A DNA stretch of 64,000 nt from Escherichia coli (GTDB taxonomy: Bacteria > Pseudomonadota > Gammaproteobacteria > Enterobacterales > Enterobacteriaceae). A program made the position numbers and the translations under genes. Where the stretch lies: assembly GCF_001677475.2 (NCBI RefSeq), contig NZ_CP015229.1. One strand, 5' to 3'. The first letter of the stretch is position 1; every line of letters begins with the position of its first letter. This document shows, piece by piece, positions 1 to 64,000 of the stretch. The notes beneath the pieces were generated by a model, which saw only the letters and a program-made list of their open reading frames with translations, made no database searches and was not told the origin of the DNA.

Positions 1-1321
1 TATACATGTTGGCAGTTGGCCCACCGAGATCGGAAATTACGCCCGTAAAACCTGGAACGGTGTCGCGGATCGCTTCGATCTCATTGATGATCGAATCTTC
101 CGAACGGCTCTGAATAATGCGCCCTTCATGCTCGGTAATAGAACAGAAAGAACAGCCACCAAAGCAGCCACGCATAATGTTGACCGAGAAACGGATCATT
201 TCGTAAGCCGGAATACGAGCATTGCCATAGGCCGGATGCGGCACGCGCTTGTACGGCAGCGCAAAAACGCTGTCCATCTCTTCGGTAGAAAGCGGGATAG
301 CAGGCGGGTTGATCCACACATAGCGGTCGCCATGTTTTTGCATCAATGCGCGGGCGCAGCCTGGGTTAGTTTCGTGGTGCAGAATACGCGAAGCATGGGC
401 GTACAGCACTTTATCGCCCTTCACTTTCTCGAAAGAAGGCAGCAACACGTAGGTTTTTTCCCATGGTTTCGGGCGCGGCGGCTGCACAGTTACAGCTTTA
501 GCTTCCTGCTTTTTCGGGGCCACCGGTTTGTTATCCGCGCACGGCAGATCTTCGCCATACGGATGCGGGATTGGGTCGATTTTCCCTGGGGTATCAAGAC
601 GGGTGGAATCCACACCGCTCCAGCCAGGCAGCGCCTCTTTTACGATAATTGCGGTATTACGCACATCGCGGATTTCACTAATCGGCTCACCCATCGCCAG
701 ACGATGCGCCACCTCCACCAACGGACGCTCACCGTTACCGAACATCAGCATGTCGGCTTTCGAATCCACCAGCACGGAACGGCGCACGGTATCGGACCAG
801 TAATCATAATGCGCGGTACGGCGCAGACTAGCCTCAATACCGCCGAGGATCACCGGCACATCTTTCCACGCCTCTTTACAACGCTGGGTATAAACCAGTG
901 TGGCGCGATCCGGTCGCTTACCCGCGACGTTATCCGGCGTGTAGGCATCGTCATGACGTAAACGGCGATCGGCAGTGTAACGGTTGATCATCGAATCCAT
1001 GTTGCCAGCAGTAACACCAAAAAACAGATTCGGTTTACCCAGACGCATAAAGTCGTCTTTGCTGCTCCAGTCCGGCTGGGCGATGATCCCGACGCGAAAG
1101 CCCTGCGCTTCCAGCATACGACCGCAAATCGCCATCCCAAAGCTTGGGTGATCGACATACGCGTCGCCAGTAACCAAAATGATGTCGCAGCTATCCCAGC
1201 CAAGTTGATCCATCTCTTCACGAGACATCGGCAAAAACGGTGCCGGTCCAAAACAGGCGGCCCAGTACTGCGGCCAGGAGAACAGGTCGCGATCCGGTTG
1301 GATCAGGGAGATAGAGCTCAT
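1..1321 (-). CDS. ygiQ: Radical SAM protein YgiQ (UPF0313), N-terminal ~440 codons; the 3' end lies beyond the window start
   Basis: My own translation of the minus strand from the ATG at 1321-1319 gives [20 protein letters not shown]..., and the frame stays open to position 1. It is missing from the ORF track because no stop codon lies in the window. Synteny with ftsP supports the call. Confidence 0.85.
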
Positions 1322-51924: not shown

Positions 51925-53766
<1,842 letters not shown>

Positions 53767-53820: not shown

Positions 53821-53846
53821 ACGCTACCTTTTCGGTGGCGTTTTTT
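53821..53846 (+). terminator. rpoD intrinsic terminator (overlaps the mug stop codon)
   Basis: cgctacc-ttttc-ggtggcg followed by tttttt. Confidence 0.8.
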
Positions 53847-54351
53847 ATCGCCCACGCACTACCAGCGCCTGGTCCAGCTCGCGATACGCTTCAACCAGTT
53901 TCTCCAGTGAAACGCGACTTAAACCGCTGGGATTTGGCAGCACCCAAATCTGCGTCGAACCAATGGTGAGCGTTTGTTTCCCCCACTGTGCACCGCGCTG
54001 GCTGAATCCCTGTTCATATGCTTGTTTGCCCAGAATCGCCAACGCCTGCGGCTGATAATCTTCAATTTTTTCAATCAGCTTACGCCCGCCTGCGTGTAGT
54101 TCTTGCTTTGAAACTTCATTGGCTTGCACCGTTGGACGGTCTACCAGTTTGGTGACGCCACAACGATAATCCAGCAGATGCTGTGCCTCCTGCGGCTTCA
54201 ACTGACGGTCGGTAAACCCGGCCTGATATATCACCTTCCAGAAGCGATTTGCCGGATGAGCAAAGGGAAAACCAGTCCCGGCGGATGAAAGCCCAGGGTT
54301 GATACCGCAAAACACGACCCGTAACCCTGGAGCCAAAATATCCTCAACCAT
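53845..54351 (-). CDS. mug: G/U mismatch-specific DNA glycosylase
   Basis: 168 aa, [20 protein letters not shown]. Confidence 0.96.
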
Positions 54352-54475
54352 ATTTACTCCTTTCTAACATCACCAGGAAAAGTATAACGAATTGAAAATA
54401 CATTGTTTATAAAAACAGCAGGCGCGCGGTAATGGCTGGATTGCGACACGGAGTTACTTTATAATCCGCTACCAT

Positions 54476-54551
54476 GGCCCCTTAGCTCAGTGGTTAGAGC
54501 AGGCGACTCATAATCGCTTGGTCGCTGGTTCAAGTCCAGCAGGGGCCACCA
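54476..54551 (+). tRNA. ileX: tRNA-Ile2 (anticodon CAU, lysidine-modified)
   Basis: 76 nt, ggcccct...aggggcc acceptor stem, anticodon loop ctCATaa, T-arm ggttcaagtcc, encoded CCA. The position after mug matches ileX. Confidence 0.92.
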
Positions 54552-54765
54552 GATTTCAATGAATTACAGATGTATCCAAACTATCTTGCTTTACCAGGAT
54601 ACTTATAGGATACCTCTGAGAAGTATTAACAAGTAAGAATTGGCTCATGCCTACAGAACAGTTGGGTCGTAGCAGCCGTTCACCTGCGAACAAGAAAGTG
54701 CTACGGGTCTGAACTTTTGCCCCCAACTCTCCAAGAGACCGGCAAAAACCCTGACGGAGGTATCA

Positions 54766-54909
54766 ATGGATACTTTAAGAAAGGGCTCAGACCTGCTGTC
54801 TGCACGTGTGATTGCCGTTACAGGTTTAATCGCAGCACTTGGCAATTTAGGTCTATGCCCAATAGCCGTAGTGCTAGTATGTATAGCTTTAGTTATCATG
54901 CTGAAGTAA
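54766..54909 (+). CDS. 47-aa hydrophobic peptide (candidate type I toxin or small membrane protein)
   Basis: Hand translation gives MDTLRKGSDLLSARVIAVTGLIAALGNLGLCPIAVVLVCIALVIMLK*. A GGAGG Shine-Dalgarno lies 7 nt upstream and a hairpin lies downstream. It is too short for the ORF track. Confidence 0.55.
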   Translation: MDTLRKGSDLLSARVIAVTGLIAALGNLGLCPIAVVLVCIALVIMLK

Positions 54910-54927
54910 TGACAGCGTAACAAGCTC

Positions 54928-54947
54928 GGCCCAGCTTTCGCTGGGCC
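54928..54947 (+). terminator. Hairpin after the 47-codon ORF
   Basis: ggcccagc-tttc-gctgggcc followed by tcccatttct, a weak T tract. Confidence 0.5.
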
Positions 54948-55356
54948 TCCCATTTCTACCTCCCAAAATCTATTAGAAACAATAAGCCACTAAAGAAAGA
55001 GCTTTTGCTGGCTACAATACTCACATACAAACAATTTTTATTTTTCGCGGGCGTAAAAAAACGATGGGGCTGGCAGTCCGGAAGACGTCAGGGTACAGAG
55101 ATTTGTACCCGCCTCTCCCTGTGCATGAGCACAATAAGTAACCGAAGGCGGAATTCCGCCCTCGGTACTCACATATGAGAAACGATATTTCTTCCACCGA
55201 TACCCTTTATTTGGGTATCGCGAGTAAGCCCCAAAATCTGGGTGTTACTCTTACTACCCAAACTACGGGTAGTTTCCGTAGTTTCATGGTCGAGTTGCAG
55301 ATCTGCAACTCACCCACCAGCCAACGCAATTTTGCGTTATCGGGAATATCAGCAAG

Positions 55357-55641
55357 TTACCGCCGCAGTCGTTCCGGCTTCTTCCACTGGTAAGTATTTT
55401 TCGCGCTCTCCCTCCGTTGTTGAGAACGGCGACGGTATGCCAGCAACTCAAGGACTCTGATCCGTATGTCGCGCATATCCACGCCGTTAAGCTCGATACC
55501 GTCACGGCGCATCATCTCTGCCACCACACGCGCGTAATTTTCGGCTATCACGCTGTCCGGCTGCGTGGCCTCCTATTTGCTTGATGGTTGTTTGATTCCG
55601 GTAACGCGGCGGATTAATCCCAGCAATTCAGATTCTGTCAT
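55357..55641 (-). pseudogene. Unknown island ORF interrupted by an in-frame TAG
   Basis: The ATG at 55641 gives MTESELLGLIRRVTGIKQPSSK, then a TAG at 55575-55573. The same frame continues EATQPDSVIAENYARVVAEMMRRDGIELNGVDMRDIRIRVLELL..., which is the track ORF 55357-55551 (GTG start, no usable Shine-Dalgarno). Confidence 0.4.
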
Positions 55642-55652
55642 AGTGCGCTACG

Positions 55653-56055
55653 TTACTTGTCTTTATTCGGCTGCAACTTATCCGGCACATTTCCGGTAGT
55701 TTCCATCAGGTAATCAGCCAGTATCTGTGGGAGGTTGTCGGCAACTCTGGCACTGGCATTACAGGCTTTAACCACTTCCCTTTTAAGCCCATCCAGCATA
55801 GCGGGGGTAATGTGTGGGAAGCTCCTTTGCATAGTAAGCGGGAGGCTGTCCATGATTGATGAAATCTGACTCGCCAGTTTTGAAAGCGCGTACATGCAAA
55901 ACTCTGTATCAATCACGTCACCGCGATCGCGCTCGTTTTTAAGTTCCTGCGCCTCCGCCTGTGCTGTCAGTAATCTGATCCTGACTCGTAAGTATGAGAC
56001 GACAATAACTCAGTCCGCCTGGCGCCGATTATTCTGGCCGGTTTTGTAACCTGAG
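55653..56055 (-). pseudogene. Nu1-type terminase small subunit, C-terminal part (separated from its N-terminal part by the IS; extra frameshift near 55983)
   Basis: Minus-strand translation gives ...RIRLLTAQAEAQELKNERDRGDVIDTEFCMYALSKLASQISSIMDSLPLTMQRSFPHITPAMLDGLKREVVKACNASA.... This aligns by hand with lambda Nu1 ...HRLTRAQADAQELKNARDSAEVVETAFCTFVLSRIAGEIASILDGLPLSVQRRFPELENRHVDFLKRDIIKAMNKAA (recalled from memory). Confidence 0.8.
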
Positions 56056-56085
56056 TGTCATTTACATGATCCAACAGGAAATGGC

Positions 56086-57514
56086 GTGACGCTCAATACT
56101 TCTCAGGTCAGTTACTATATGACTCAGCGTAAGAAAGGTATAACTCAGCATATCTCGGCCATGAAGGCTGGTATCTCAGTCCGTTCTGGTCGTCGGATCG
56201 AAAAAGGAGAGTGGGCAAAAAACAGTGTTCGGCACTGGCGCACACGCAAAGATCCTCTGGAAGCTGTGTGGGACAGCATGCTTGTTCCTCTGTTGAAAGA
56301 GAGGCCGGCTCTGACACCAACAACTCTACTGGAGATGCTACAGGATAAATATCCCGGCCAGTACCCCAACAGCCTTCGAAGAACAATGCAACGGCGGGTT
56401 CGCGAATGGAAACTACAGTATGGTACAGAGCAGGAGGTCATGTTCCGCCAGCAACATCAGCCCGGCCTGCGAGGCCTGTCGGACTTTACTGAACTGAAAG
56501 GTGTAGTTGTCACCATCGCCGGTAAGTTGTTGGCGCATAAGTTGTATCACTTCCGTCTGGAATGGAGCCACTGGAGCTGGATGCGGGTTGTTCTGGGTGG
56601 TGAGAGCTTCTCTGCTCTGGCTGAAGGCCTGCAGGAAGCCCTCGGACAACTGGGCGGAGTGCCGGTAGAACATAAAACGGACAGCCTGAGGGCAGCATGG
56701 AAACAACAGGGCGAAGATGGACGCCGCGAGCTGACTGAGCGTTATGCTACTCTCTGTCAGCACTACGGAATGCAGGGCGTACACAATAATGCCGGTCGGG
56801 GCCACGAAAATGGCTCGGTTGAAAGTGCCCACGGACATCTGAAAAGGCGTATCTGTCAGGCGCTGATACTGCGGGGCAGTAACGACTTCAGCACCATAGA
56901 AGAATATCAGGCCTTCATCACTCAGCAGGTTATGCGGCACAACCGTAACAATCAGGATCTGGTCAAGGAAGAACGTCTTCATCTGAAACCGCTGCCGCTT
57001 CGTCGCAGTGCTGACTATGATGAGCTGACTGTGAGGGTTAGTCGCAGCAGTACCATCAATGTGAAGCACGTCGTCTACAGCGTACCTTCCCGGCTTGTAG
57101 GTCAACTGTTACGGGTCAGGTTATGGGACGATCGTCTGAGCTGTTACGTTGGCAGCAGCGAGGTCATGAGCTGCCCTCGCGTCAGACCAGAAAAAGGGAA
57201 GACGCGGGCCCGTCGTATCGACTTCCGACATGTGATCGACAGTCTGGCAAAAAAGCCCGGTGCGTTCTGCCATGCAACGCTGAGAAATGACATCCTGCCG
57301 GACGATGAATGGCGGAGGCTGTGGCGTCGCTTATGTAATCATCTGGAGCCCGATATGGCAGGAAGGCTGATGGTACATGCCGGGAAACGTGGATCTGCAC
57401 CGGCTGATGCGCTTCCTGGGTATAAAAGAAAAGGCGTTGCCGGTAGTCAATGTGATACAGCATAACCTGAGCAGTTATGAGCAACTACTGCGTGGCAAGG
57501 GAGGTTCGCAGTGA
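56086..57514 (+). pseudogene. istA: IS21-family transposase IstA with an apparent frame disruption near the 3' end
   Basis: The track ORF 56086-57465 (459 aa, HTH plus DDE region) ends in ...HAGKRGSAPADALPGYKRKGVAGSQCDTA. The +1 frame from 57371 reads WYMPGNVDLHRLMRFLGIKEKALPVVNVIQHNLSSYEQLLRGKGGSQ*, and its TGA overlaps the istB GTG (GTGA at 57511-57514). That overlap is the canonical istA/istB junction. Confidence 0.65.
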
Positions 57515-58266
57515 GCAATATCCATCACCTTGAACATAGCCTGCGTAAACTACGCCTGACACGAGTTGGAGCTGAATGGCACGCTCTGGAAAAACGAGCG
57601 CTGGCAGAAGGCTGGACACCATCGCGCTATCTTCTGACGCTATGCAATGAAGAACTCCTGTGGCGCGAGAGTGAAAAACTGCGTCGTTATAAAAAGGAGG
57701 CCCGGTTGCCAGTTGCCAAAACGCTGAGCGAATACGACTTCAGTCAGGTGCCGGAACTGAATGGAGCTCAGTTCCGGCAACTCTGTGAAACGACAGACTG
57801 GGTTGATGCAGGAGAAAACGTTCTGCTGTTCGGAGCCAGCGGGTTGGGGAAAAGCCATCTGGCGGCAGCGATCGTGGATGGCGTAGTAGGTCAGGGCTAC
57901 CGGGCCCGGTTCTACAGCGCAGGAGAGCTGTTGCAGGAACTACGTAAAGCCAGAGCTCAGTTGAAACTGAATGAGCTGCTACTGAAACTGGATCGCTACC
58001 GGGTGATAGTGGTGGATGATCTTGGCTATGTCAAACGCGATAGTGCCGAAACGGGTGTGCTGTTCGAGTTAATAGCGCATCGCTATGAACGTGGGAGCCT
58101 GGTGATAACCAGTAACCATCCGTTCAGCATGTGGGGCAGCATCTTCGTGGATGAGACTATGGCGGTGGCTGCGGCAGACAGGCTGATCCATCACGGATAT
58201 ATGTTCGAACTGAAAGGGGAAAGCTACAGGAAAAAGACAGCGAAGGCAGTAACAAGCGCGACTTGA
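57511..58266 (+). CDS. istB: IS21-family ATP-binding helper IstB
   Basis: 251 aa, Walker A GASGLGKSH, Walker B VIVVDDLG. A GGGAGG Shine-Dalgarno lies upstream of the GTG. Confidence 0.92.
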   Translation: MSNIHHLEHSLRKLRLTRVGAEWHALEKRALAEGWTPSRYLLTLCNEELLWRESEKLRRYKKEARLPVAKTLSEYDFSQVPELNGAQFRQLCETTDWVDAGENVLLFGASGLGKSHLAAAIVDGVVGQGYRARFYSAGELLQELRKARAQLKLNELLLKLDRYRVIVVDDLGYVKRDSAETGVLFELIAHRYERGSLVITSNHPFSMWGSIFVDETMAVAAADRLIHHGYMFELKGESYRKKTAKAVTSAT

Positions 58267-58325
58267 TGTCGCCCTGAAGGGTGCGGCCAGTATAGTTGGC
58301 GCGAGTCGGCAAAACTAGTTGACGT

Positions 58326-58541
58326 CTAATATCGTAAGAGTTCATCATCATCAATCTCGCCTTTGTCGTTTGTAAGCTGGCTAATTGCATTGTTAACCCT
58401 ATTGTCTATCACGCTGGCAACATCATAAAACGCCTCACGGCCTTTACGTTCAACGGGAGTCACTCCCCACTTGTCGAATGCTGTAGCACTTACCCGGCAG
58501 CTTTGCGCCATGGTTTTTTTGTTCATCAGGTGCGATTTCAT
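58326..58541 (-). pseudogene. Nu1-type terminase small subunit, N-terminal winged-HTH part (truncated at the IS junction)
   Basis: (MKSHL)MNKKTMAQSCRVSATAFDKWGVTPVERKGREAFYDVASVIDNRV... compared with lambda Nu1 MEVNKKQLADIFGASIRTIQNWQEQGMPVLRGGGKGNEVLYDSAAVIKWY (recalled). It lies about 150 nt downstream of cosN, as in lambda. The reading frame hits a TAG exactly at the IS end. Confidence 0.75.
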
Positions 58542-58559
58542 CAATATCCCAACTTGGTC

Positions 58560-58718
58560 AAGGTTTCAGGTTGGTGTGTTGGTGTTATCTTTCCCTTTTT
58601 ATTCATGGAGATAGAGCAAACAACAAAACCACCACCACCCCCCTGAAAAAGCTCATAAATAGCGAAAAACCGCGAGGTCGCCGCCCCGTAACGGGTCCAT
58701 ATGCCGGAAAGGACCCGT
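58560..58718 (-). other. Lambda-type cos site: cosQ-like and cosN core (58651-58718) plus a divergent cosB-side region (58560-58650)
   Basis: Minus strand reads ttACGGGTCCTTTCCGGcatatggacccGTTACG GGGCGGCGACCT CGCGGtTTTTCGCTATTTATGAgc.... Capitals match the lambda right end ...ACGGGTCCTTTCCGGTGATCCGACAGGTTACG and the left end GGGCGGCGACCTCGCGGGTTTTCGCTATTTATGAAAA as I recall them. The 12-nt cohesive-end sequence lies at 58675-58686. Confidence 0.85.
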
Positions 58719-58742
58719 AAAAAAAGCCGGATTTCTCCGGCC
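58719..58742 (-). terminator. Intrinsic terminator ending the capsid operon, immediately upstream of cos
   Basis: Minus strand reads gccgga-gaaa-tccggc followed by ttttttt. A near-identical hairpin recurs at 61002-61017. Confidence 0.85.
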
Positions 58743-58747
58743 TTGTC

Positions 58748-59161
58748 TCAGATGGTTTTCAGTATGCGATCGATGTCGCCATCATCGCCCGGGTTTCTGC
58801 CAGCGTATGCCATACCAGCTGATACGGCTTTCGGGCTGTGCATGTCCATAAAGTTTTCAAAGGCTGCGGTAAGCTCTGGTGCAACCTTCTGGCGTTCCTG
58901 CTCTATGGTCATGCTAAGGATGCTTTTAGCCGTACCAACATCGATACAAGGCACGTTTGCCATTGCACGTAACAGCGGCTGATAGTCGCCAGATTCATCA
59001 AGCGCCATAATCGCATCAGAGCGCGGCTTGTCCTTCTCTTCCAGGCTGTTAAGTTGATATACGGCCTCGTAGGTTGATAAACCTCTGTCAGCCATTGCCC
59101 GCGCTTCGGCCTTAAATTTACTCGCCAGCGGTAGCGTCATGATGCTTTCATTCGTTGCCAT
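58748..59161 (-). CDS. Hypothetical 137-aa protein, last gene of the capsid block
   Basis: The ORF has a GAGGGA Shine-Dalgarno 12 nt after the gpD-like stop. I recognise no family. It is acidic with helical character. Confidence 0.6.
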   Translation of the reverse strand: MATNESIMTLPLASKFKAEARAMADRGLSTYEAVYQLNSLEEKDKPRSDAIMALDESGDYQPLLRAMANVPCIDVGTAKSILSMTIEQERQKVAPELTAAFENFMDMHSPKAVSAGMAYAGRNPGDDGDIDRILKTI

Positions 59162-59173
59162 CGTTCCCTCTGC

Positions 59174-59509
59174 TTATCGGGCCAGTGGCTGAACGGATAC
59201 GCCAGAACCCGCAAAGGCGGCGCATTTTTTCGCATCGGTGTCGACGCTCTCAGGCCAGTTAACGGCGGCGATATTAAATATCCCCGTCTTATAGCACTGT
59301 GCTGATTTCTGCGTCGACGTGTCAACGGGGTACGAGGTCAGATAAACAGCCTTGCCAGATTCCTGACCATCCCACGGCTTAAACTCGCCATTTTCCGCCA
59401 GCATCAGCGGGGTAAATTCCTGAATAACTCCAGCATCAGCGGCAAAATGTACCAGCGTCGTGGATACCTGCTGACTGCCTGCAAATAACTCAATGTATGG
59501 AGTGTTCAT
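59174..59509 (-). CDS. Head decoration protein, lambda gpD-like
   Basis: 111 aa. Shared motifs with lambda gpD (recalled): TPLML, WDG, YK(S/T)G.F, WPE, AFAG..(I/V)S(I/V). GGGGGA Shine-Dalgarno. Confidence 0.8.
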   Translation of the reverse strand: MNTPYIELFAGSQQVSTTLVHFAADAGVIQEFTPLMLAENGEFKPWDGQESGKAVYLTSYPVDTSTQKSAQCYKTGIFNIAAVNWPESVDTDAKKCAAFAGSGVSVQPLAR

Positions 59510-59520
59510 AGAATCCCCCG

Positions 59521-60576
59521 TTAAGCAATTTTGACGGTAACAAATTTGCGAATATCTGCCGGTACCGGCTGCGGTGCGCTGTGCGTCTGCACGTACTCAA
59601 TCGCCGGATCGCCATCCTCAATCCAGTTTTTCGGGTAGTACATGTTTTGCGTTGCGCCAGTTCTTACCGCTTCCGGATCCATAATCGCACCATAGGCCAC
59701 CAGCCCTTTATTGTTAGTGTTGCCCAGGACAAGCAAATCAGGCTCAAGGAAATATTTTTCGGTGCCATCGCTGTCGGTGTATTTGCCGGAATAGACGATA
59801 AGGGCCAGATCACCCAGATAGCCTTTAAAGCTCACCACTTCGCCCAGGTTTTTACAGGCCAGCTCTGCGGCGGATTCTGAACCACGGGAAAGATCGTACA
59901 GTTCACGGAATTTTTTAAAGCTGCGTAACGTGCGCCATACCTCAGCGCCCATAATCATGACGTTGGCGGGGCAACCAGCCTGATCGGTGTATAGTTCGAT
60001 GTCATAGATTGGATCGTGTGTTTCCTTATCTGCCTCAGACCACTTTTTGCCCGATCCCTGCGTAATGATGTTTTTAGTCGGGATTTTCCAGTCGATTTCG
60101 TATCTATTTATTCCTTCGCCCTCAATGATGTTTTTTCCGGTCGTGACCGCATTCACCGCCAGCCATTCTATGCGAGCTTTAATAGCGTTTACCTGGCGGC
60201 GCATGTTGCCAGTAATCAGGCGCATACGGCGATAAGTTGGATCGTTAAGCTGTGCCGGATCTTCTCCAGCCATGCGCATGATGGTTTTTGATGGATCGAT
60301 TTCGTGTTTTGGTTTCATATAGCCAGGGCGGATAGTGCTTGTTTCGTACCCTTTATCGCGCTGAACCTGACTCCCCACCATAGGCGAACAAAAAGCCGAC
60401 ATGGTGACTTCTTCAATATCCAGGGTATCTAACATGATGTCCTGCGTGTTGAAGGTTGCCACGTTCGGGAAAAACAGCGACGTAAACAGCGGACTGAATT
60501 TAAATTCCGAAATATCCCCACGATTCAGGTACGCGAAAAGCTGGTTAGTGTTAAGTGCCGTTGCTTTGCCTGTCAT
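59521..60576 (-). CDS. Major capsid protein, lambda gpE family
   Basis: 351 aa. FKFSPLFTSLFF vs lambda FKFDPLFLRLFF; PGYMKPKHEIDP vs PGYVKPKHEVNP; DPTYRRMRLI vs DPAYRRRRII; YPKNWIEDGDPA vs YPKNWVTTGDPA (lambda recalled from memory). Confidence 0.9.
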   Translation of the reverse strand: MTGKATALNTNQLFAYLNRGDISEFKFSPLFTSLFFPNVATFNTQDIMLDTLDIEEVTMSAFCSPMVGSQVQRDKGYETSTIRPGYMKPKHEIDPSKTIMRMAGEDPAQLNDPTYRRMRLITGNMRRQVNAIKARIEWLAVNAVTTGKNIIEGEGINRYEIDWKIPTKNIITQGSGKKWSEADKETHDPIYDIELYTDQAGCPANVMIMGAEVWRTLRSFKKFRELYDLSRGSESAAELACKNLGEVVSFKGYLGDLALIVYSGKYTDSDGTEKYFLEPDLLVLGNTNNKGLVAYGAIMDPEAVRTGATQNMYYPKNWIEDGDPAIEYVQTHSAPQPVPADIRKFVTVKIA

Positions 60577-60782
60577 TATTCACCCCCATGAGTCTGATTC
60601 ATGCCCAGCGCCGCGCGTAAATAGGCGCGTACCTGCCAGCCTGTTGACGGCTCAACCATCGCCAGCGGCTCAAGTCCTGCCGCAATGCCTGCTTTTACGT
60701 TCTGCTGGTGGCGTTCCTTGAGCGCCTCCACGATGTCTGGGCTTATGTAAACTGTCACCCCGCCTTTTTTCTCTTCTGCCAT
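60576..60782 (-). CDS. Hypothetical 68-aa protein, first gene of the capsid block
   Basis: MAEEKKGGVTVYISPDIVEALKERHQQNVK... from the ATG at 60782 with a GAGGAA Shine-Dalgarno. Its stop overlaps the capsid ATG (TAATG). The track ORF starts 11 codons earlier. Confidence 0.55.
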   Translation of the reverse strand: MAEEKKGGVTVYISPDIVEALKERHQQNVKAGIAAGLEPLAMVEPSTGWQVRAYLRAALGMNQTHGGE

Positions 60783-60810
60783 AGTCGGAAATTCCTCTTT
60801 GACGTTAAAA

Positions 60811-60846
60811 ATCACAACTGGATGTTCATCCAGTTGTGATTATAAT
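60811..60846 (-). promoter_or_regulatory. 30-bp perfect palindrome (operator candidate) abutting a symmetric GATTATAATC -10 element
   Basis: atcacaactggatg-tt-catccagttgtgat (60811-60840), with TATAAT readable on both strands at 60839-60846. It lies about 30-60 nt upstream of the first capsid-block gene. Confidence 0.6.
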
Positions 60847-60950
60847 CATGATTTCATTTTACGCAATAATGTTGAGTTGTGTTGCAAATTGTGAAATGAT
60901 TTCCGGCAACAGTAGTCACCATACTGTTAGATAAAAGCCTCATATGCAAA

Positions 60951-60988
60951 AGCCCGATAAGACCCTCTGACCTTATCGGGCTTTTTTT
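60951..60988 (+). terminator. Strong hairpin plus T7, oriented for the plus strand
   Basis: agcccgataag-accctctgac-cttatcgggct followed by ttttttt. No annotated plus-strand gene lies upstream. Confidence 0.6.
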
Positions 60989-60995
60989 GGGGCAT

Positions 60996-61017
60996 AAAAA
61001 AGCCGGACTTCTCCGGC
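60996..61017 (-). terminator. Intrinsic terminator after ssb
   Basis: Minus strand reads gccgga-gaag-tccggc followed by tttttt. Confidence 0.8.
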
Positions 61018-61033
61018 TTCTGTTACTCGTTGC

Positions 61034-61456
61034 TTAAAACGGTATGTTATCCCCGTACGGATCATCGTTACCCGCCTGTTGTTTTGCCCTGTTCAGTGCG
61101 TCAGTAGCCTGCCCTTGCTGGCCTTTTTTGCCGCCCGGTCGCGCCGTTCTCGCACTGATTACGCTGTCTGCGATAACCTGCCAGCCCTGCCGCGTTTCGC
61201 CGTTCTGGCCTGTCCACTGGCTTACCTGCATGTTACCCGCCACGCTCACCAGTTCGCCTTTGTGGTGTTTTGCCAGTGCGTCGGCCTGTCTGCCAAACGC
61301 CAGGACGGATAACCACATCGTCGCCGTTCCGTCATCTGCCTGGCTGCACGGAAGGGGGACCGCCATACTAGCCATCGTCATTTGTGTACCCTTGCTGGTG
61401 GTCTTTAACTGCGGGTCAGCCACCAGCCGCCCGTAAGCCGCTATCTGTGCTGTCAT
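61034..61456 (-). CDS. ssb: Single-stranded DNA-binding protein
   Basis: 140 aa. OB-fold N-terminus, G/Q-rich linker and an acidic C-terminal tip DDPYGDNIPF (compare the E. coli SSB tip DDDIPF). Confidence 0.88.
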   Translation of the reverse strand: MTAQIAAYGRLVADPQLKTTSKGTQMTMASMAVPLPCSQADDGTATMWLSVLAFGRQADALAKHHKGELVSVAGNMQVSQWTGQNGETRQGWQVIADSVISARTARPGGKKGQQGQATDALNRAKQQAGNDDPYGDNIPF

Positions 61457-61698
61457 GCTGTCTGCTCTCCGGTTTTAACGTTGATGGTTGTCACCTGTTC
61501 CGCTTCGGCAATCTCCCGTTCTGTCAGCGTGGCAAAGTTTGCAGCTGCCGTTGTCATGAATGCGCTAATCAGTTCGGGATGTGCTTTCGCATATCCTTCC
61601 CCGGCGTTGCGGTCGATGATTTTTATCGACACCCTTAACCAGTGTTCCGTCAAATCAAGGGCGTGCGATTGTGATTTTTTTGTGTGCTTCGCTGTCAT
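61453..61698 (-). CDS. Hypothetical 81-aa protein between ori and ssb
   Basis: The ORF overlaps the ssb start by 4 nt. I recognise no family. Confidence 0.5.
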   Translation of the reverse strand: MTAKHTKKSQSHALDLTEHWLRVSIKIIDRNAGEGYAKAHPELISAFMTTAAANFATLTEREIAEAEQVTTINVKTGEQTA

Positions 61699-61743
61699 AG
61701 GCTTTATCTCACAGCAGTAAATTAAAATTTTTGCGTTTTAACC

Positions 61744-61972
61744 CTTCACCTGTTCACCTTTTGATATTTTCCATTTAAATTCATACTGTTAAGGGGTGAA
61801 CAGTTTCACAAAAACTATTCACCAACTGTTCACCACTGTTCACCCTTGAAGCTCAATAAACAACCAAAAAGGTGAACAGTGAATAGTTTGGTGAATAGTT
61901 CATAAATAACTGTTCACCCTATAATATACTGATATAAAAGATATTTATGACAGGGTGAACAGTGGTGAACAG
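61744..61972. repeat. Iteron field / candidate replication origin
   Basis: GGTGAACAG or its complement CTGTTCACC occurs at 61750, 61795, 61826, 61836, 61871, 61910, 61954 and 61964. The variant GGTGAATAG/CTATTCACC occurs at 61815, 61878 and 61890. AT-rich spacers lie at 61759-61790 and 61919-61950. The field sits directly 3' of the primase-helicase gene. Confidence 0.8.
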
Positions 61973-61985
61973 TTATTCCATAAGT

Positions 61986-63803
61986 TTAATTTTTGCTATC
62001 GTCATTAGTGACTGATACACATGATGGCATCCAGTCTTCTGATTCCTCCGTCAGTGTCACGTTTGAACGTAAACCGTGCTTCGTTTTCCGTTTTATATAC
62101 TCCCTGCCATATTCCGCCATTGCCCCAGGCATATCTTTACCGAAGCGCGTCAGTGTTACAGGTTTACCAAACCCATGAGCCCTCATATAAGCCAGATAGG
62201 CATGATAGAGATACCTGCGCGGGCTGAATGGCACAATTTCAGCATTACCCACTAACAGGCCATCACACATTACCGACGCCATGAGATAGCCGCAGAAGTC
62301 CACCAGCGAATCCCCCTCTCGCTTTATCGCCAGTGCTTCTTCAGATTTCTGCTGCTCATATAACAGGCGTCTGGCTTCGTCCTGGTCAGCAAACCTTGTA
62401 AGCAGATGGCGAATCACTACCGCCAGCTCACCTTCTATTTTTTCCGCCAGCATCGGATCGCGTTCGTTCTCCGGTACAACTTCCGAAAAATTGAATATCA
62501 CCCGACGACGTGAGATCCCCCCGCTGCGGTCACTGAATGACATGGCGTTATTGTTAACCGCCAGCACTACTGCCGGAATACGCGTTGAGTAGGGGGCTTT
62601 GTGTTTCGGGTCAATTGCCACCTTGTCACCGCCTGTAATGGCCTTAATTCCTGCCCCATCACCAGCGTAGCGGGTCATATCCGGCATGATAATCAGCGAA
62701 AAGCCAACCACTAACGCGCGTTCCCTTGCATCTTCCAGCGCCTTCATGCTTGCCGATACTGTGTTGGCCTTACCCGCCAGCATGGTGCAAATCTCCGCCA
62801 TCACGCTTTTACCACTTCCCCCTGGACCTGTTACCTCAATGAATAACTGCCAGTCGTACCGGTTCGCCAGCACCATGAATAATGCAGCCAGTACGCGATC
62901 CGCCTTGCGGTCATTCTCAGCCACCGAACGGCGTAACCACTTCCAGAAATTCGGCGCATGTGTTGCCAGCGTTTCCCCCTCTGCTGGTGGGCTGAAAGGT
63001 AATTCACTGGCAATTAACAACCAGTCGTTTTTGTTATGCTCCCGAAAATTACCTGTTCTGGTATCAAATACCCCGTTACTGAATCCAATCAGGTTACGGG
63101 CTGTATTCCCCATTACAGGCAAACTTAACTTCATGGTATCGACCGCCGATTTAATGGCGTTCTGCGAATAGCTGATCTCCGCATCAATGAAAATCTGCGC
63201 CATAGCACGCTGTAACTCTTTATCCTGAACCGGCTCCCATACAACGCCGTTGTAATGGTGAACAGTGTCAGAGTCAGCATGAATCGCCAGTTCACCGCCA
63301 TAATGTGCCAGGAGAACTTCGCCGCGTTGACTTGCTCCCATCTGGTTAAGCGCCAGTGATGAAGCGTTATCGTCTTTTACCCGCTCTTTTTTCTTTACAG
63401 GCAGTTCAACTACCTTTTTCTTTTCCGCCAGCTCTGCCCGTTCACGTTCCAGATATTCGCGCCAGTTCTCCCGTTTCTGGCTGTGCATTCCTTCAGGATA
63501 ATAATCAGCATCCCTGACACCTGCCGCTGCCAGTTTCTGCCCGATGGTATTAACAAGCCCCGGACGCAATAACCCCGCCTGGTAGAGACGCACACGATAG
63601 CGTCCGTCCGGTACGATTTGCAGGTTGTCCAGTTCGGCAAGTTGTTGCTCTCCAAGCCAGACAGGAGGCACGTTATCGCCAGCCAGTCGCCCGTCCTGTT
63701 CCTGCCACTGCTTCGCATGTGCCCACGCATCACTACCCGCAAAAATGATGACTTCCGTCATTTTGTCACGTGGCTGGTGTTTTAAATTTGGCGCTTTTTT
63801 CAT
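61986..63803 (-). CDS. P4/D5-type primase-helicase (N-terminal primase-like region, D5_N, SF3 helicase)
   Basis: About 605 aa from the ATG at 63803 (MKKAPNLKHQ...), Walker A GPGGSGKS, Walker B-like SLIIMPD. The ATGA overlap with the upstream small ORF supports this start. Confidence 0.88.
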   Translation of the reverse strand: MKKAPNLKHQPRDKMTEVIIFAGSDAWAHAKQWQEQDGRLAGDNVPPVWLGEQQLAELDNLQIVPDGRYRVRLYQAGLLRPGLVNTIGQKLAAAGVRDADYYPEGMHSQKRENWREYLERERAELAEKKKVVELPVKKKERVKDDNASSLALNQMGASQRGEVLLAHYGGELAIHADSDTVHHYNGVVWEPVQDKELQRAMAQIFIDAEISYSQNAIKSAVDTMKLSLPVMGNTARNLIGFSNGVFDTRTGNFREHNKNDWLLIASELPFSPPAEGETLATHAPNFWKWLRRSVAENDRKADRVLAALFMVLANRYDWQLFIEVTGPGGSGKSVMAEICTMLAGKANTVSASMKALEDARERALVVGFSLIIMPDMTRYAGDGAGIKAITGGDKVAIDPKHKAPYSTRIPAVVLAVNNNAMSFSDRSGGISRRRVIFNFSEVVPENERDPMLAEKIEGELAVVIRHLLTRFADQDEARRLLYEQQKSEEALAIKREGDSLVDFCGYLMASVMCDGLLVGNAEIVPFSPRRYLYHAYLAYMRAHGFGKPVTLTRFGKDMPGAMAEYGREYIKRKTKHGLRSNVTLTEESEDWMPSCVSVTNDDSKN

Positions 63804-63988
63804 TTCTGCTCTCTCCACGCGGCAATCATGTTTTTCAGTTCCTGTAGTTTTTTATCAACATCCATACATGACACATGGTTATTTCTGGAAGGCGGGATTT
63901 CCCGCCGGAATCTGCAAATAAAGATCTCCACGTTCAGCGAGCTATGAAATGAATAGCCATCACGAATAAAATACACACGGTCAAACAT
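63800..63988 (-). CDS. Hypothetical 62-aa protein translationally coupled to the primase-helicase
   Basis: ORF MFDRVYFIRDGYSFHSSLNVEIFI...KKLQELKNMIAAWREQK. Its stop overlaps the primase ATG. Confidence 0.45.
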   Translation of the reverse strand: MFDRVYFIRDGYSFHSSLNVEIFICRFRREIPPSRNNHVSCMDVDKKLQELKNMIAAWREQK

Positions 63989-64000
63989 TATCGATTTTAC

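What the first reader, a model, noticed from the sequence alone, without database searches (positions are those of the whole stretch)
54552..54950. 47-codon hydrophobic ORF with a strong Shine-Dalgarno, a structured ~200-nt leader and a terminator immediately after ileX: candidate type I toxin
The ORF track misses it because it is shorter than 60 aa. ATG 54766 to TAA 54909 encodes MDTLRKGSDLLSARVIAVTGLIAALGNLGLCPIAVVLVCIALVIMLK. This is a short polar head followed by about 30 hydrophobic residues ending in K, the same architecture as Zor/Ibs/Ldr/TisB-type toxins, and it shares MDTL...LK ends with ZorO as I recall it. GGAGG lies 7 nt upstream. The upstream region can form long-range pairings (agttggg 54659-54665 with cccaact 54720-54726; cgtagca 54667-54673 with tgctacg 54698-54704), of the kind that keep type I toxin mRNAs translationally inert. 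Two longer overlapping track ORFs (54651-54953 minus, 54717-54920 plus) lack any start context.
Basis: partly seen in the sequence, partly recalled or inferred. Interest (0 to 1): 0.6.

Follow-up and report, generated by a model that had tools for sequence, protein, structure and literature searches.

The report
Unannotated small membrane-peptide gene on satellite
Right after the ileX tRNA, at the edge of an 11-kb phage-satellite island, lies a real but unannotated 47-codon gene for a membrane peptide whose mRNA has a conserved compact fold; it looks like a new family of type I toxin-like genes, although no antitoxin RNA was found and toxicity is untested.

Summary
ATG 54766 to TAA 54909 encodes the stated 47-aa peptide behind a GGAGG, directly after ileX. 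The region is the attL end of an ~11-kb phage-satellite-like island, present in 28 of 5426 complete E. coli genomes and never annotated there.

The ORF is a real gene:
- 42 protein clusters, nearly all called at 47-48 aa, occur in Escherichia, Klebsiella, Citrobacter, Salmonella, Raoultella and Erwinia.
- Pairwise dN/dS is 0.13-0.49.
- It is the only frame open in all 19 distinct loci.

The mRNA has a conserved fold of 35 pairs. 99% of cells pair, against 30-41% in slid controls, and 7 pairs show compensatory changes. A leader hairpin forms, the leader pairs with codons 8-10, codons 10-12 pair with the 3'UTR, and a 5'/3' contact sits beside a terminal GC hairpin.

The type I toxin reading is only partly supported:
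- There is no homology to ZorO, Hok or any Pfam/NCBIfam family.
- No known antitoxin RNA, convincing antisense promoter or trans-complementary RNA was found.
- Shine-Dalgarno occlusion is no greater than in shuffled controls.
- The hairpin lacks a U-tract.

Best reading, at about 0.5: a new type I toxin-like family carried by mobile elements that integrate at ileX and ssrA.

The parts
54476..54551 (+). tRNA ileX (CAT anticodon). Its 3' part is the att core of the island.
   Evidence: ARAGORN and Rfam tRNA at 73 bits. The half-tRNA copy plus the native ileX terminator lie at the far end of the island in L001 23338-23418.
54593..54627 (+). attL arm block CCAGGATACtTATAGGATACC...AGAAGTATT, with AGGATAC at 54596 and 54607. 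These are probably integrase/excisionase arm-type sites and are not part of the conserved RNA module.
   Evidence: The block is conserved in all ileX-type loci but absent from the ssrA-type Erwinia locus. The same block recurs in direct orientation on the int-proximal arm of the same island, L001 23208-23250.
54660..54765 (+). Conserved 5' leader of the ORF47 mRNA. Conservation begins sharply at CAGTTGGGTCGTAGCAGCC.
   Evidence: Alignments A1, A4 and A5. The 19-nt block is nearly invariant: across the 19 loci only two of its columns vary, and both are H2 pairs that change together with their partners.
54668..54705 (+). Helix H2, the leader hairpin: CGUAGCA 54668-54674 pairs with UGCUACG 54699-54705. 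The loop varies in length.
   Evidence: 7 bp with 100% of cells paired. Two pairs change on both sides: A-U to G-C in 7 sequences, and A-U to G-C in 1 sequence.
54706..54793 (+). Helix H3(+H4): leader GGUCUGA 54706-54712 pairs with codons 8-10 UCAGACC 54787-54793. This closes an ~75-nt domain that holds the Shine-Dalgarno sequence and the AUG.
   Evidence: 98.5% of cells are paired. G-C changes to A-U on both sides in L031 and L040, where the change in the ORF is the synonymous GAC>GAU. C-G changes to U.G in 6 sequences.
54756..54760 (+). Shine-Dalgarno GGAGG, 5 nt before the ATG.
   Evidence: GGAG or GGAGG lies at 4-8 nt from the ATG in all 19 loci.
54766..54909 (+). ORF47, the gene for a 47-aa hydrophobic peptide.
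   Evidence: There are 42 homologous clusters, nearly all called at 47-48 aa. dN/dS is 0.13-0.49. It is the only frame open in all 19 loci.
54781..54800 (+). Near-invariant block AAGGGCTCAGACCTGCTGTC (codons K6-S12). Synonymous changes are almost absent here, which implies an RNA-level constraint on top of the coding one.
   Evidence: In the 19-locus alignment A5 only L031 (two changes) and L040 (one change) differ here. The block supplies the 3' strand of H3 and the 5' strand of H5. Its reverse complement reads (C/T)TGACA, which resembles a -35 element.
54794..54917 (+). Helix H5: codons 10-12 UGCUGU 54794-54799 pair with the 3'UTR ACAGCG 54912-54917.
   Evidence: 99.1% of cells are paired. 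All variation is wobble (U-A>U.G, G-C>G.U), which is valid only for + strand RNA.
54664..54927 (+). Helix H1, the 5'/3' end contact: GGGU 54664-54667 pairs with GCUC 54924-54927. The alternative pairing AGUUGGG 54660-54666 with CCCAACU 54722-54728 is mutually exclusive with it.
   Evidence: 100% of cells are paired, but the helix is only 4 bp and shows only one-sided changes. This is weak on its own.
54928..54947 (+). Helix H6, the terminal GC hairpin GGCCCAGC-uuuc-GCUGGGCC. It has no U-tract. The conserved GCGTAACAAG (54915-54924) precedes it.
   Evidence: 4 of 8 pairs show compensatory changes. It is not called as a + strand terminator.
54950..54963 (+). CCATTTCTACCTCC, which is 12/14 complementary to the Shine-Dalgarno-AUG segment 54756-54769. 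It could act as a 3' anti-Shine-Dalgarno element if the transcript runs past the hairpin. As an exact element it is specific to this window.
   Evidence: Inverted repeat I4. Other loci have only pyrimidine-rich CCUC-like runs here.

Best explanation
The stretch 54660-54947 is one sense-strand module. It carries a real, unannotated gene for a 47-aa inner-membrane peptide, and its whole mRNA adopts a conserved compact fold. The fold has a leader hairpin (H2), a leader segment paired to codons 8-10 (H3) that encloses the Shine-Dalgarno sequence and the AUG, codons 10-12 paired to the 3'UTR (H5), and a short 5'/3' contact (H1) next to a terminal GC hairpin (H6).

The module sits at the att-proximal edge of integrative phage satellites and prophages of Enterobacterales that insert into ileX, and in Erwinia into ssrA. 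It lies beside a slot of variable cargo genes.

The most likely mechanism is type I toxin-like, on the model of hok and aapA1. The full-length folded mRNA would be stable but poorly translated. Processing or refolding would open the initiation region. The peptide would insert into the inner membrane and depolarise or arrest the cell. That would serve either retention of the element or abortive infection.

Shown: the gene is real, it is under purifying selection, and the RNA fold is conserved and belongs to the + strand. Inferred: translational repression by the fold, toxicity, and the biological role. An antitoxin RNA was not found. If one exists it is most likely a cis-antisense RNA started from the (C/T)TGACA that lies on the minus strand of the invariant codon 6-12 block.
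For: Gene reality:
- Homologues, nearly all called at 47-48 aa, fall into 42 clusters across six genera.
- dN/dS is 0.13-0.49, and variable columns by codon position number 19/12/31.
- It is the only frame without stops in all 19 loci.
- A GGAG(G) lies 4-8 nt upstream in all 19.

Membrane peptide:
- GRAVY is 1.53, and the 19-residue window 28-46 scores 3.04.
- AlphaFold2 predicts two helices with a break at G29-P32, mean pLDDT 73.
- Both ends are basic.

RNA fold:
- The RNAalifold consensus is the same on 12 and on 19 sequences.
- 99.1% of cells pair, against 30-41% when partners are slid. 7 pairs change on both sides, and 0 of 500 shuffles reach this.
- Many G.U substitutions would be C.A mismatches on the other strand, so the fold belongs to the sense RNA.
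- z = -4.84 for the window sequence.
- Codons 6-12 show almost no synonymous change, although dS elsewhere is 0.3-1.0. This is what is expected if they pair with both the leader and the 3'UTR.

Context typical of type I toxins:
- The module is the first element inside a mobile element.
- It is autonomous: the neighbouring genes differ from locus to locus.
Against: - No antitoxin was found. Rfam has no hit to sok, orzO, istR, sib, rdl, symR and the like at E<=10.
- No conserved near-consensus antisense promoter exists. The best candidate scores a median 4.7 bits, needs an 18-19-nt spacer and has a poor -10.
- No recurrent complementary segment lies within 9 kb.
- Predicted Shine-Dalgarno accessibility (mean P unpaired 0.24) equals that of shuffled controls (0.23).
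- H1 is only 4 bp and has no double changes.
- There is no homology to any known toxin family.
- No sense promoter could be located.
- In many relatives a 260-262-aa ORF follows on the same strand 74-110 nt downstream. In those loci the peptide could be one part of a two-gene system rather than a self-contained toxin.
Confidence: 0.5

Rival explanations
1. ORF47 is a non-toxic small inner-membrane protein of the satellite, for example a superinfection-exclusion factor, a modulator of a host membrane protein, or an accessory partner of the neighbouring cargo gene. On this reading the conserved mRNA fold only provides stability and dosage control. One way it could do so is by protecting a transcript that is released from an ileX read-through precursor.
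For: - No antitoxin was detectable.
- Shine-Dalgarno occlusion is not above chance.
- A strong Shine-Dalgarno sequence is conserved.
- The module is always co-oriented with ileX or ssrA. In the window, L001, L022 and L032 no + strand terminator separates it from the tRNA. The native ileX terminator is displaced to the far end of the island. This would mean constitutive transcription, which is hard to reconcile with a potent toxin.
- A same-strand 260-262-aa ORF follows in many relatives.
Against: - Long-range pairing of the leader and the 3'UTR with the coding region, and near-complete suppression of synonymous change in codons 6-12, are unusual for ordinary small membrane proteins. They are characteristic of type I toxin mRNAs such as hok and aapA1 (established knowledge).
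- The neighbouring genes vary, so there is no fixed partner.
- The Erwinia ssrA locus has a strong terminator between the tmRNA and the module, so read-through is not a general mechanism.
Confidence: 0.3
2. The functional product is mainly the structured ~290-nt RNA, acting as a satellite regulatory or dual-function RNA, for example on helper phage or host transcripts. The peptide would be secondary.
For: Several 15-20-nt blocks are nearly invariant across loci whose synonymous divergence reaches ~1: CAGTTGGGTCGTAGCAGCC, GTGCTACGGGTCTGA, AAGGGCTCAGACCTGCTGTC and GCGTAACAAG. The fold has strong covariation support.
Against: The reading frame, its length and its hydrophobic character are all kept. 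Substitutions are biased to synonymous sites outside the paired blocks. A Shine-Dalgarno sequence is conserved at the right distance. There is no Rfam family. The invariant blocks are already accounted for by intramolecular helices.
Confidence: 0.12
3. It is a chance ORF inside the attL arm DNA. On this reading the conservation reflects recombination sites bound by integrase or excisionase, not a gene.
For: The module always lies ~105-120 nt beyond the att core region, next to arm-type repeats.
Against: - The arm repeats end at about 54627 and are absent from the ssrA-type locus, which nevertheless keeps the module.
- Codon-position bias and dN/dS well below 1 indicate coding.
- The strand-specific pattern of G.U wobble indicates RNA, not DNA sites.
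- A neighbouring stretch (54990-55650) occurs in 1256 E. coli genomes, against only 28 that carry the module, so the module is not tied to the satellite core.
Confidence: 0.03

Closest known systems
hok/sok family (plasmid R1 and chromosomal hok loci)
   Same: It has a ~50-aa membrane peptide and a highly folded full-length mRNA. The 5' region, the coding region and the 3' end interact over long range, and a 5'/3' end contact lies next to a terminal hairpin. The module is carried on mobile elements.
   Different: There is no Hok domain (Pfam), and the topology is opposite: here the N-terminus is polar and the C-terminal 32 residues are hydrophobic. There is no conserved overlapping mok-like frame, no Sok-like RNA or strong antisense promoter, and the end-pairing helix is only 4 bp.
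zorO/orzO (E. coli O157:H7)
   Same: It has a small hydrophobic peptide and a long 5'UTR of >100 nt that is structured. ZorO's 174-nt UTR hinders its own translation until it is processed (PMC5397157 abstract).
   Different: ZorO is 29 aa and is not homologous (hhalign probability 0.2%). No divergent orzO-like gene is present and there is no Rfam hit. Here the pairing extends into the coding region and the 3'UTR.
aapA1/IsoA1 (Helicobacter pylori) and tisB/istR-1 (E. coli)
   Same: The concept is the same: a primary toxin mRNA kept inert by its own folding and activated by processing (established knowledge; review PMC8309996).
   Different: There is no sequence or Rfam relationship. No antitoxin gene is identifiable here, and no LexA or other known regulatory site was identified.
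Accessory or defence cargo slots of phage satellites (P4-like, PICI, cf-PICI)
   Same: The module borders a slot with variable genes. These include HEPN-like ORFs. The slot lies at the edge of islands that encode integrase, primase and capsid functions.
   Different: The module itself is the constant element flanking the slot. It is not in PADLOC or PHROGs.

Membership tests
Type I toxin-antitoxin system (generic definition) | Small (<60 aa) hydrophobic, membrane-targeted protein encoded by a genuine gene | tested here: met
   47-48 aa in the 19 loci examined. GRAVY is 1.53 and the best 19-residue window scores 3.04. AlphaFold2 predicts two helices. dN/dS is 0.13-0.49. It is the only frame open in all 19 loci.
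Type I toxin-antitoxin system (generic definition) | RNA antitoxin (cis-antisense or nearby trans sRNA) that base-pairs with the toxin mRNA | tested here: inconclusive
   There is no Rfam antitoxin family at E<=10. The only candidate antisense promoter is weak: (C/T)TGACA plus 18-19 nt plus nAAAGT, median 4.7 bits. No recurrent complementary segment lies within 9 kb. Sequence alone cannot exclude a cis-antisense RNA.
Type I toxin-antitoxin system (generic definition) | Toxin mRNA structure that restrains translation | tested here: inconclusive
   A conserved fold with covariation encloses the Shine-Dalgarno sequence and the AUG. However, the predicted unpaired probability of the Shine-Dalgarno sequence (0.24) equals that of shuffled controls (0.23).
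Type I toxin-antitoxin system (generic definition) | Growth arrest or membrane damage on overexpression, relieved by the antitoxin | not testable with these tools
   This needs induction experiments.
ZorO/OrzO | Sequence homology to ZorO (29 aa, MDTLTQKLTVLIAVLELLVALLRLIDLLK) and a divergent orzO gene | tested here: not met
   hhalign probability is 0.2%. The MDTL N-terminus is not conserved in the family. There is no OrzO Rfam hit.
Hok/Sok | Hok protein domain, overlapping mok frame and Sok antisense RNA | tested here: not met
   There is no Pfam or NCBIfam hit at E<=10. No overlapping frame is conserved. There is no sok Rfam hit.
Hok/Sok | mRNA 5'-3' end pairing (fold-back inhibition) | tested here: inconclusive
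   H1, GGGU/GCUC, is 100% paired in 19 loci, but it is only 4 bp and shows only one-sided changes.
Other enterobacterial type I toxins (Ldr, TisB, Ibs, ShoB, DinQ) and Fst | Match to the family profile | tested here: not met
   Pfam and NCBIfam give 0 families at E<=10.
Integrative phage satellite / prophage at a tRNA or tmRNA gene (context of the module) | att duplication of the tRNA 3' end, a tyrosine integrase, and replication and capsid/packaging genes | tested here: met
   The L001 annotation lists integrase, primase, SSB, an Icd-like protein, a ClpP-protease/major-capsid fusion and DUF1441. The half-tRNA repeat lies at the far end. Related loci carry TerL, TerS, portal and capsid genes.

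The most novel reading that the evidence does not exclude
The module is an antitoxin-less membrane toxin that is gated by its mRNA fold, and its transcription is wired to the integration state of the element. Integration into ileX separates the tRNA from its own terminator, so the tRNA promoter reads into the promoterless module. Excision or loss of the element changes production or processing of the stable folded mRNA. This would give the satellite an addiction or abortive-infection switch that needs no antisense RNA.
Probability: 0.12. Interest if true: 0.75.

Novelty: new member of a known kind. Interest (0 to 1): 0.52.

Why it matters
If the peptide is toxic, this would be a previously undescribed type I toxin-like family. 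It has no Pfam, NCBIfam, PHROG, PADLOC or Rfam entry, and RefSeq leaves it unannotated in all 28 carrier E. coli genomes. It is carried specifically at the att-proximal edge of phage satellites and prophages across Enterobacterales.

It would add a stabilisation or abortive-infection function to satellites. It would also provide a compact test case of an mRNA whose coding sequence is constrained by pairing with both its leader and its 3'UTR: the covariation-supported fold gives four mutable helices. Finally, it shows that annotation pipelines miss conserved genes under 50 codons at island borders.

Tried and rejected
- **ZorO homology:** rejected.
- **Known families:** Pfam, NCBIfam, PHROGs and PADLOC gave nothing meaningful for the peptide. 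PADLOC and NCBIfam gave nothing for the neighbouring cargo ORFs, and Pfam gave only weak HEPN/DUF4145 hits.
- **Rfam:** at E<=10 over 54350-55750 only the tRNA matched.
- **Sense promoter:** none was convincing. TAGGAT inside the arm repeat has a variable -35. 'nnCAGT' fails as a -10 because the key A is C in 7/19 loci. AGTAW lies at a variable distance of 19-31 nt.
- **Antisense promoters:** TTGTTA-N17-cATGAT just 3' of the stop has an invariant -35 but an unconserved -10. (C/T)TGACA-N18-19-nAAAGT is weak.
- **Trans antitoxin:** blastn-short of each module against up to 9 kb of its own element gave only chance-level hits.
- **Shine-Dalgarno sequestration as a statistical signal:** rejected, since it equals the shuffled controls.
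- **tRNA read-through as a general promoter:** weakened by a strong terminator after ssrA in Erwinia.
- **Remnants of the relatives' cargo genes in the window:** none at 54552-64000.
- **tblastn of the peptide:** no match in the phage collection. The plasmid collection gave only a mislabelled Salmonella chromosomal fragment.
- **Literature:** searches for the peptide motif, for type I TA on satellites and for ileX islands found nothing relevant.

Full report
**What is at the coordinates.** The window carries rpoD (51925-53766), mug (53845-54351, minus strand) and a CAT-anticodon tRNA at 54476-54551, which is ileX. GGAGG lies at 54756-54760, leaving a 5-nt spacer. The quoted leader pairings exist but are 1-2 nt off: AGTTGGG is at 54660-54666, CCCAACT at 54722-54728, CGTAGCA at 54668-54674 and TGCTACG at 54699-54705. 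The 'terminator' is an 8-bp GC hairpin at 54928-54947. It is followed by UCCCAUUUCU and was not called as a + strand terminator.

**Genomic context.** The 439 bp after ileX occur in only 28 of 5426 complete E. coli genomes, at 99.8% identity or more, and RefSeq annotates nothing there. In strain HS13-1 the stretch is the left edge of an ~11-kb island. The island encodes DUF1441, a ClpP-protease/major-capsid fusion, SSB, a primase, an Icd-like protein and a tyrosine integrase at the far end. A half-ileX repeat follows the integrase, and then comes the native ileX terminator. This is an integrative phage-satellite-like element.

The block CCAGGATACnTATAGGATACC..AGAAGTATT (54593-54627) recurs in direct orientation on the integrase-proximal arm. 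It is absent from a related ssrA-type locus. It is therefore best read as arm-type recombinase sites, not as part of the RNA module.

**The ORF is a gene.**
- A protein search found five clusters of 47-48 aa at 72-100% identity.
- A profile search of 1.8 billion representatives added two clusters at about 50% identity.
- A second profile search gave 42 clusters. Nearly all are 47-48 aa, and the few longer ones (52-84 aa) are upstream start calls or C-terminal variants. They come from Klebsiella, Citrobacter, Salmonella, Raoultella, Erwinia and Pseudocitrobacter, and all are 'hypothetical'.
- Pairwise dN/dS is 0.13-0.49, with dS up to about 1. Variable columns by codon position number 19/12/31.
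- In 19 distinct loci only this frame is free of stops. The two longer overlapping ORFs of the window are interrupted in 15/19 and 11/19 relatives.
- A GGAG(G) sits 4-8 nt upstream in every locus.

**The peptide.** It has a polar head containing the invariant motif KGSDLLSxR, then about 32 hydrophobic residues with a Gly/Pro break, and a basic C-terminus. GRAVY is 1.53. AlphaFold2 predicts helices 3-28 and 32-46 with mean pLDDT 73.

**The mRNA fold.** RNAalifold gave the same consensus structure on 12 and on 19 sequences:
- **H2:** the leader hairpin, 54668-54674 with 54699-54705.
- **H3:** leader 54706-54712 with codons 8-10 at 54787-54793, enclosing the Shine-Dalgarno sequence and the AUG.
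- **H5:** codons 10-12 at 54794-54799 with the 3'UTR at 54912-54917.
- **H1:** GGGU 54664-54667 with GCUC 54924-54927.
- **H6:** the terminal hairpin.

On the 19-sequence alignment 99.1% of pair cells are standard pairs, against 30-41% when the partners are slid. Seven pairs change on both sides, and 0 of 500 shuffles reach this. One of these double changes pairs a synonymous GAC>GAU change in the ORF with a G>A change in the leader.

The many G.U substitutions would be C.A mismatches on the opposite strand, so the fold belongs to the sense RNA. The fold also explains why AAGGGCTCAGACCTGCTGTC (codons 6-12) shows almost no synonymous change. The window RNA folds at -108.5 kcal/mol with z = -4.84.

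**What argues for and against a type I toxin.**

In favour:
- The peptide's size and hydrophobicity fit.
- The module is autonomous and sits on mobile elements.
- Long-range pairing between leader, coding region and 3'UTR recalls hok and aapA1 (established knowledge; review PMC8309996).

Against or unresolved:
- There is no homology to ZorO (sequence from PMC6669753; hhalign probability 0.2%) or to any Pfam, NCBIfam, PHROG or PADLOC family.
- Rfam gives no antitoxin family.
- Promoter scoring across aligned loci found nothing convincing on either strand. The best antisense candidate uses the (C/T)TGACA complementary to the invariant TGTCAG, but it has a poor -10 and an 18-19-nt spacer.
- No recurrent complementary segment exists within 9 kb.
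- Predicted Shine-Dalgarno accessibility equals that of shuffled controls, 0.24 against 0.23.

**Position and neighbours.** In the eight loci scanned for tRNA genes, the seven that carry one have the module starting ~105-120 nt after the 3' end of a co-oriented stable-RNA gene, with the ORF start at about 210-230 nt. That gene is ileX in six of them and ssrA in Erwinia, where the element is a P2-like prophage.

The downstream neighbours vary from locus to locus:
- a same-strand ORF of 260-262 aa with weak HEPN/DUF4145 similarity;
- a convergent HEPN-like ORF of 192-193 aa;
- other small ORFs;
- or, in the window, about 700 nt without a gene.

So the module is the constant flank of a variable cargo slot.

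In the window, L001, L022 and L032 no + strand terminator separates ileX from the module, and the native ileX terminator lies beyond attR. Read-through from the tRNA promoter is therefore plausible here. The Erwinia locus, however, has a strong terminator right after ssrA, so read-through cannot be the general rule.

**Verdict.** The toxin interpretation is plausible but unproven, at about 0.5. The main rival is a benign small membrane protein with a stabilising mRNA fold, at about 0.3. The module is best filed as a new, unannotated family of the known kind 'type I toxin-like small hydrophobic ORF with a structured mRNA'. The antitoxin, the promoter and the toxicity all remain open.

Noticed in passing
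window 55125-55650 (query 54990-55650): About 500 nt of gene-free sequence lies between the module and the first annotated satellite gene. On the minus strand it folds as a chain of near-perfect hairpins: 55125-55420 gives -122 kcal/mol with z = -7.7. It ends in a minus-strand intrinsic terminator at 55166-55141. The stretch is present in 1256 of 5426 E. coli genomes, against 28 for the ORF47 module. It is shared by satellites at other att sites (for example next to clpS), beside terS and capsid genes. It may be a cos/pac region or a satellite ncRNA.
   Followed up: partly
window 54593-54627; L001 23208-23250: The same block CCAGGATACnTATAGGATACC..AGAAGTATT lies on both arms of the island in direct orientation. 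It is probably a set of arm-type integrase/excisionase binding sites.
   Followed up: partly
L001 23338-23418 (beyond the window's right end): The attR half-tRNA is followed by the native ileX terminator, AAAGGCTGACGAGAAATCGTCAGCCTTT plus a T-run. Integration therefore leaves the intact ileX gene at attL without its own terminator.
   Followed up: partly
L022 7221-8003, L025 7232-8020, L031 7229-8017; L032 7205-7786(-), L010 455-1033(-): Two cargo genes recur next to the module in relatives. One is a same-strand ORF of 260-262 aa; only the L022 member shows sub-threshold DUF4145/HEPN hits. The other is a convergent ORF of 192-193 aa with HEPN hits at E about 2e-4. Neither is in PADLOC or NCBIfam. 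They could be uncharacterised defence genes carried by satellites.
   Followed up: partly
L031 6427-7147 (Erwinia aphidicola): The same module sits 211 nt after ssrA (tmRNA), at the end of a P2-like prophage with tail-fibre genes. A strong terminator lies between the tmRNA and the module. So the module occurs with a different att site and a different element type.
   Followed up: partly
window 54950-54963 vs 54756-54769: A sequence just 3' of the terminal hairpin (CCATTTCTACCTCC) is 12/14 complementary to the Shine-Dalgarno-AUG segment. As an exact element it is specific to this window.
   Followed up: no
L048 (NZ_LN868944.1, Salmonella Senftenberg 'plasmid 2', 727.9 kb): This record carries rpoD-mug and a copy of the module followed by an IS3 transposase. 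It looks like a chromosomal fragment deposited as a plasmid.
   Followed up: no
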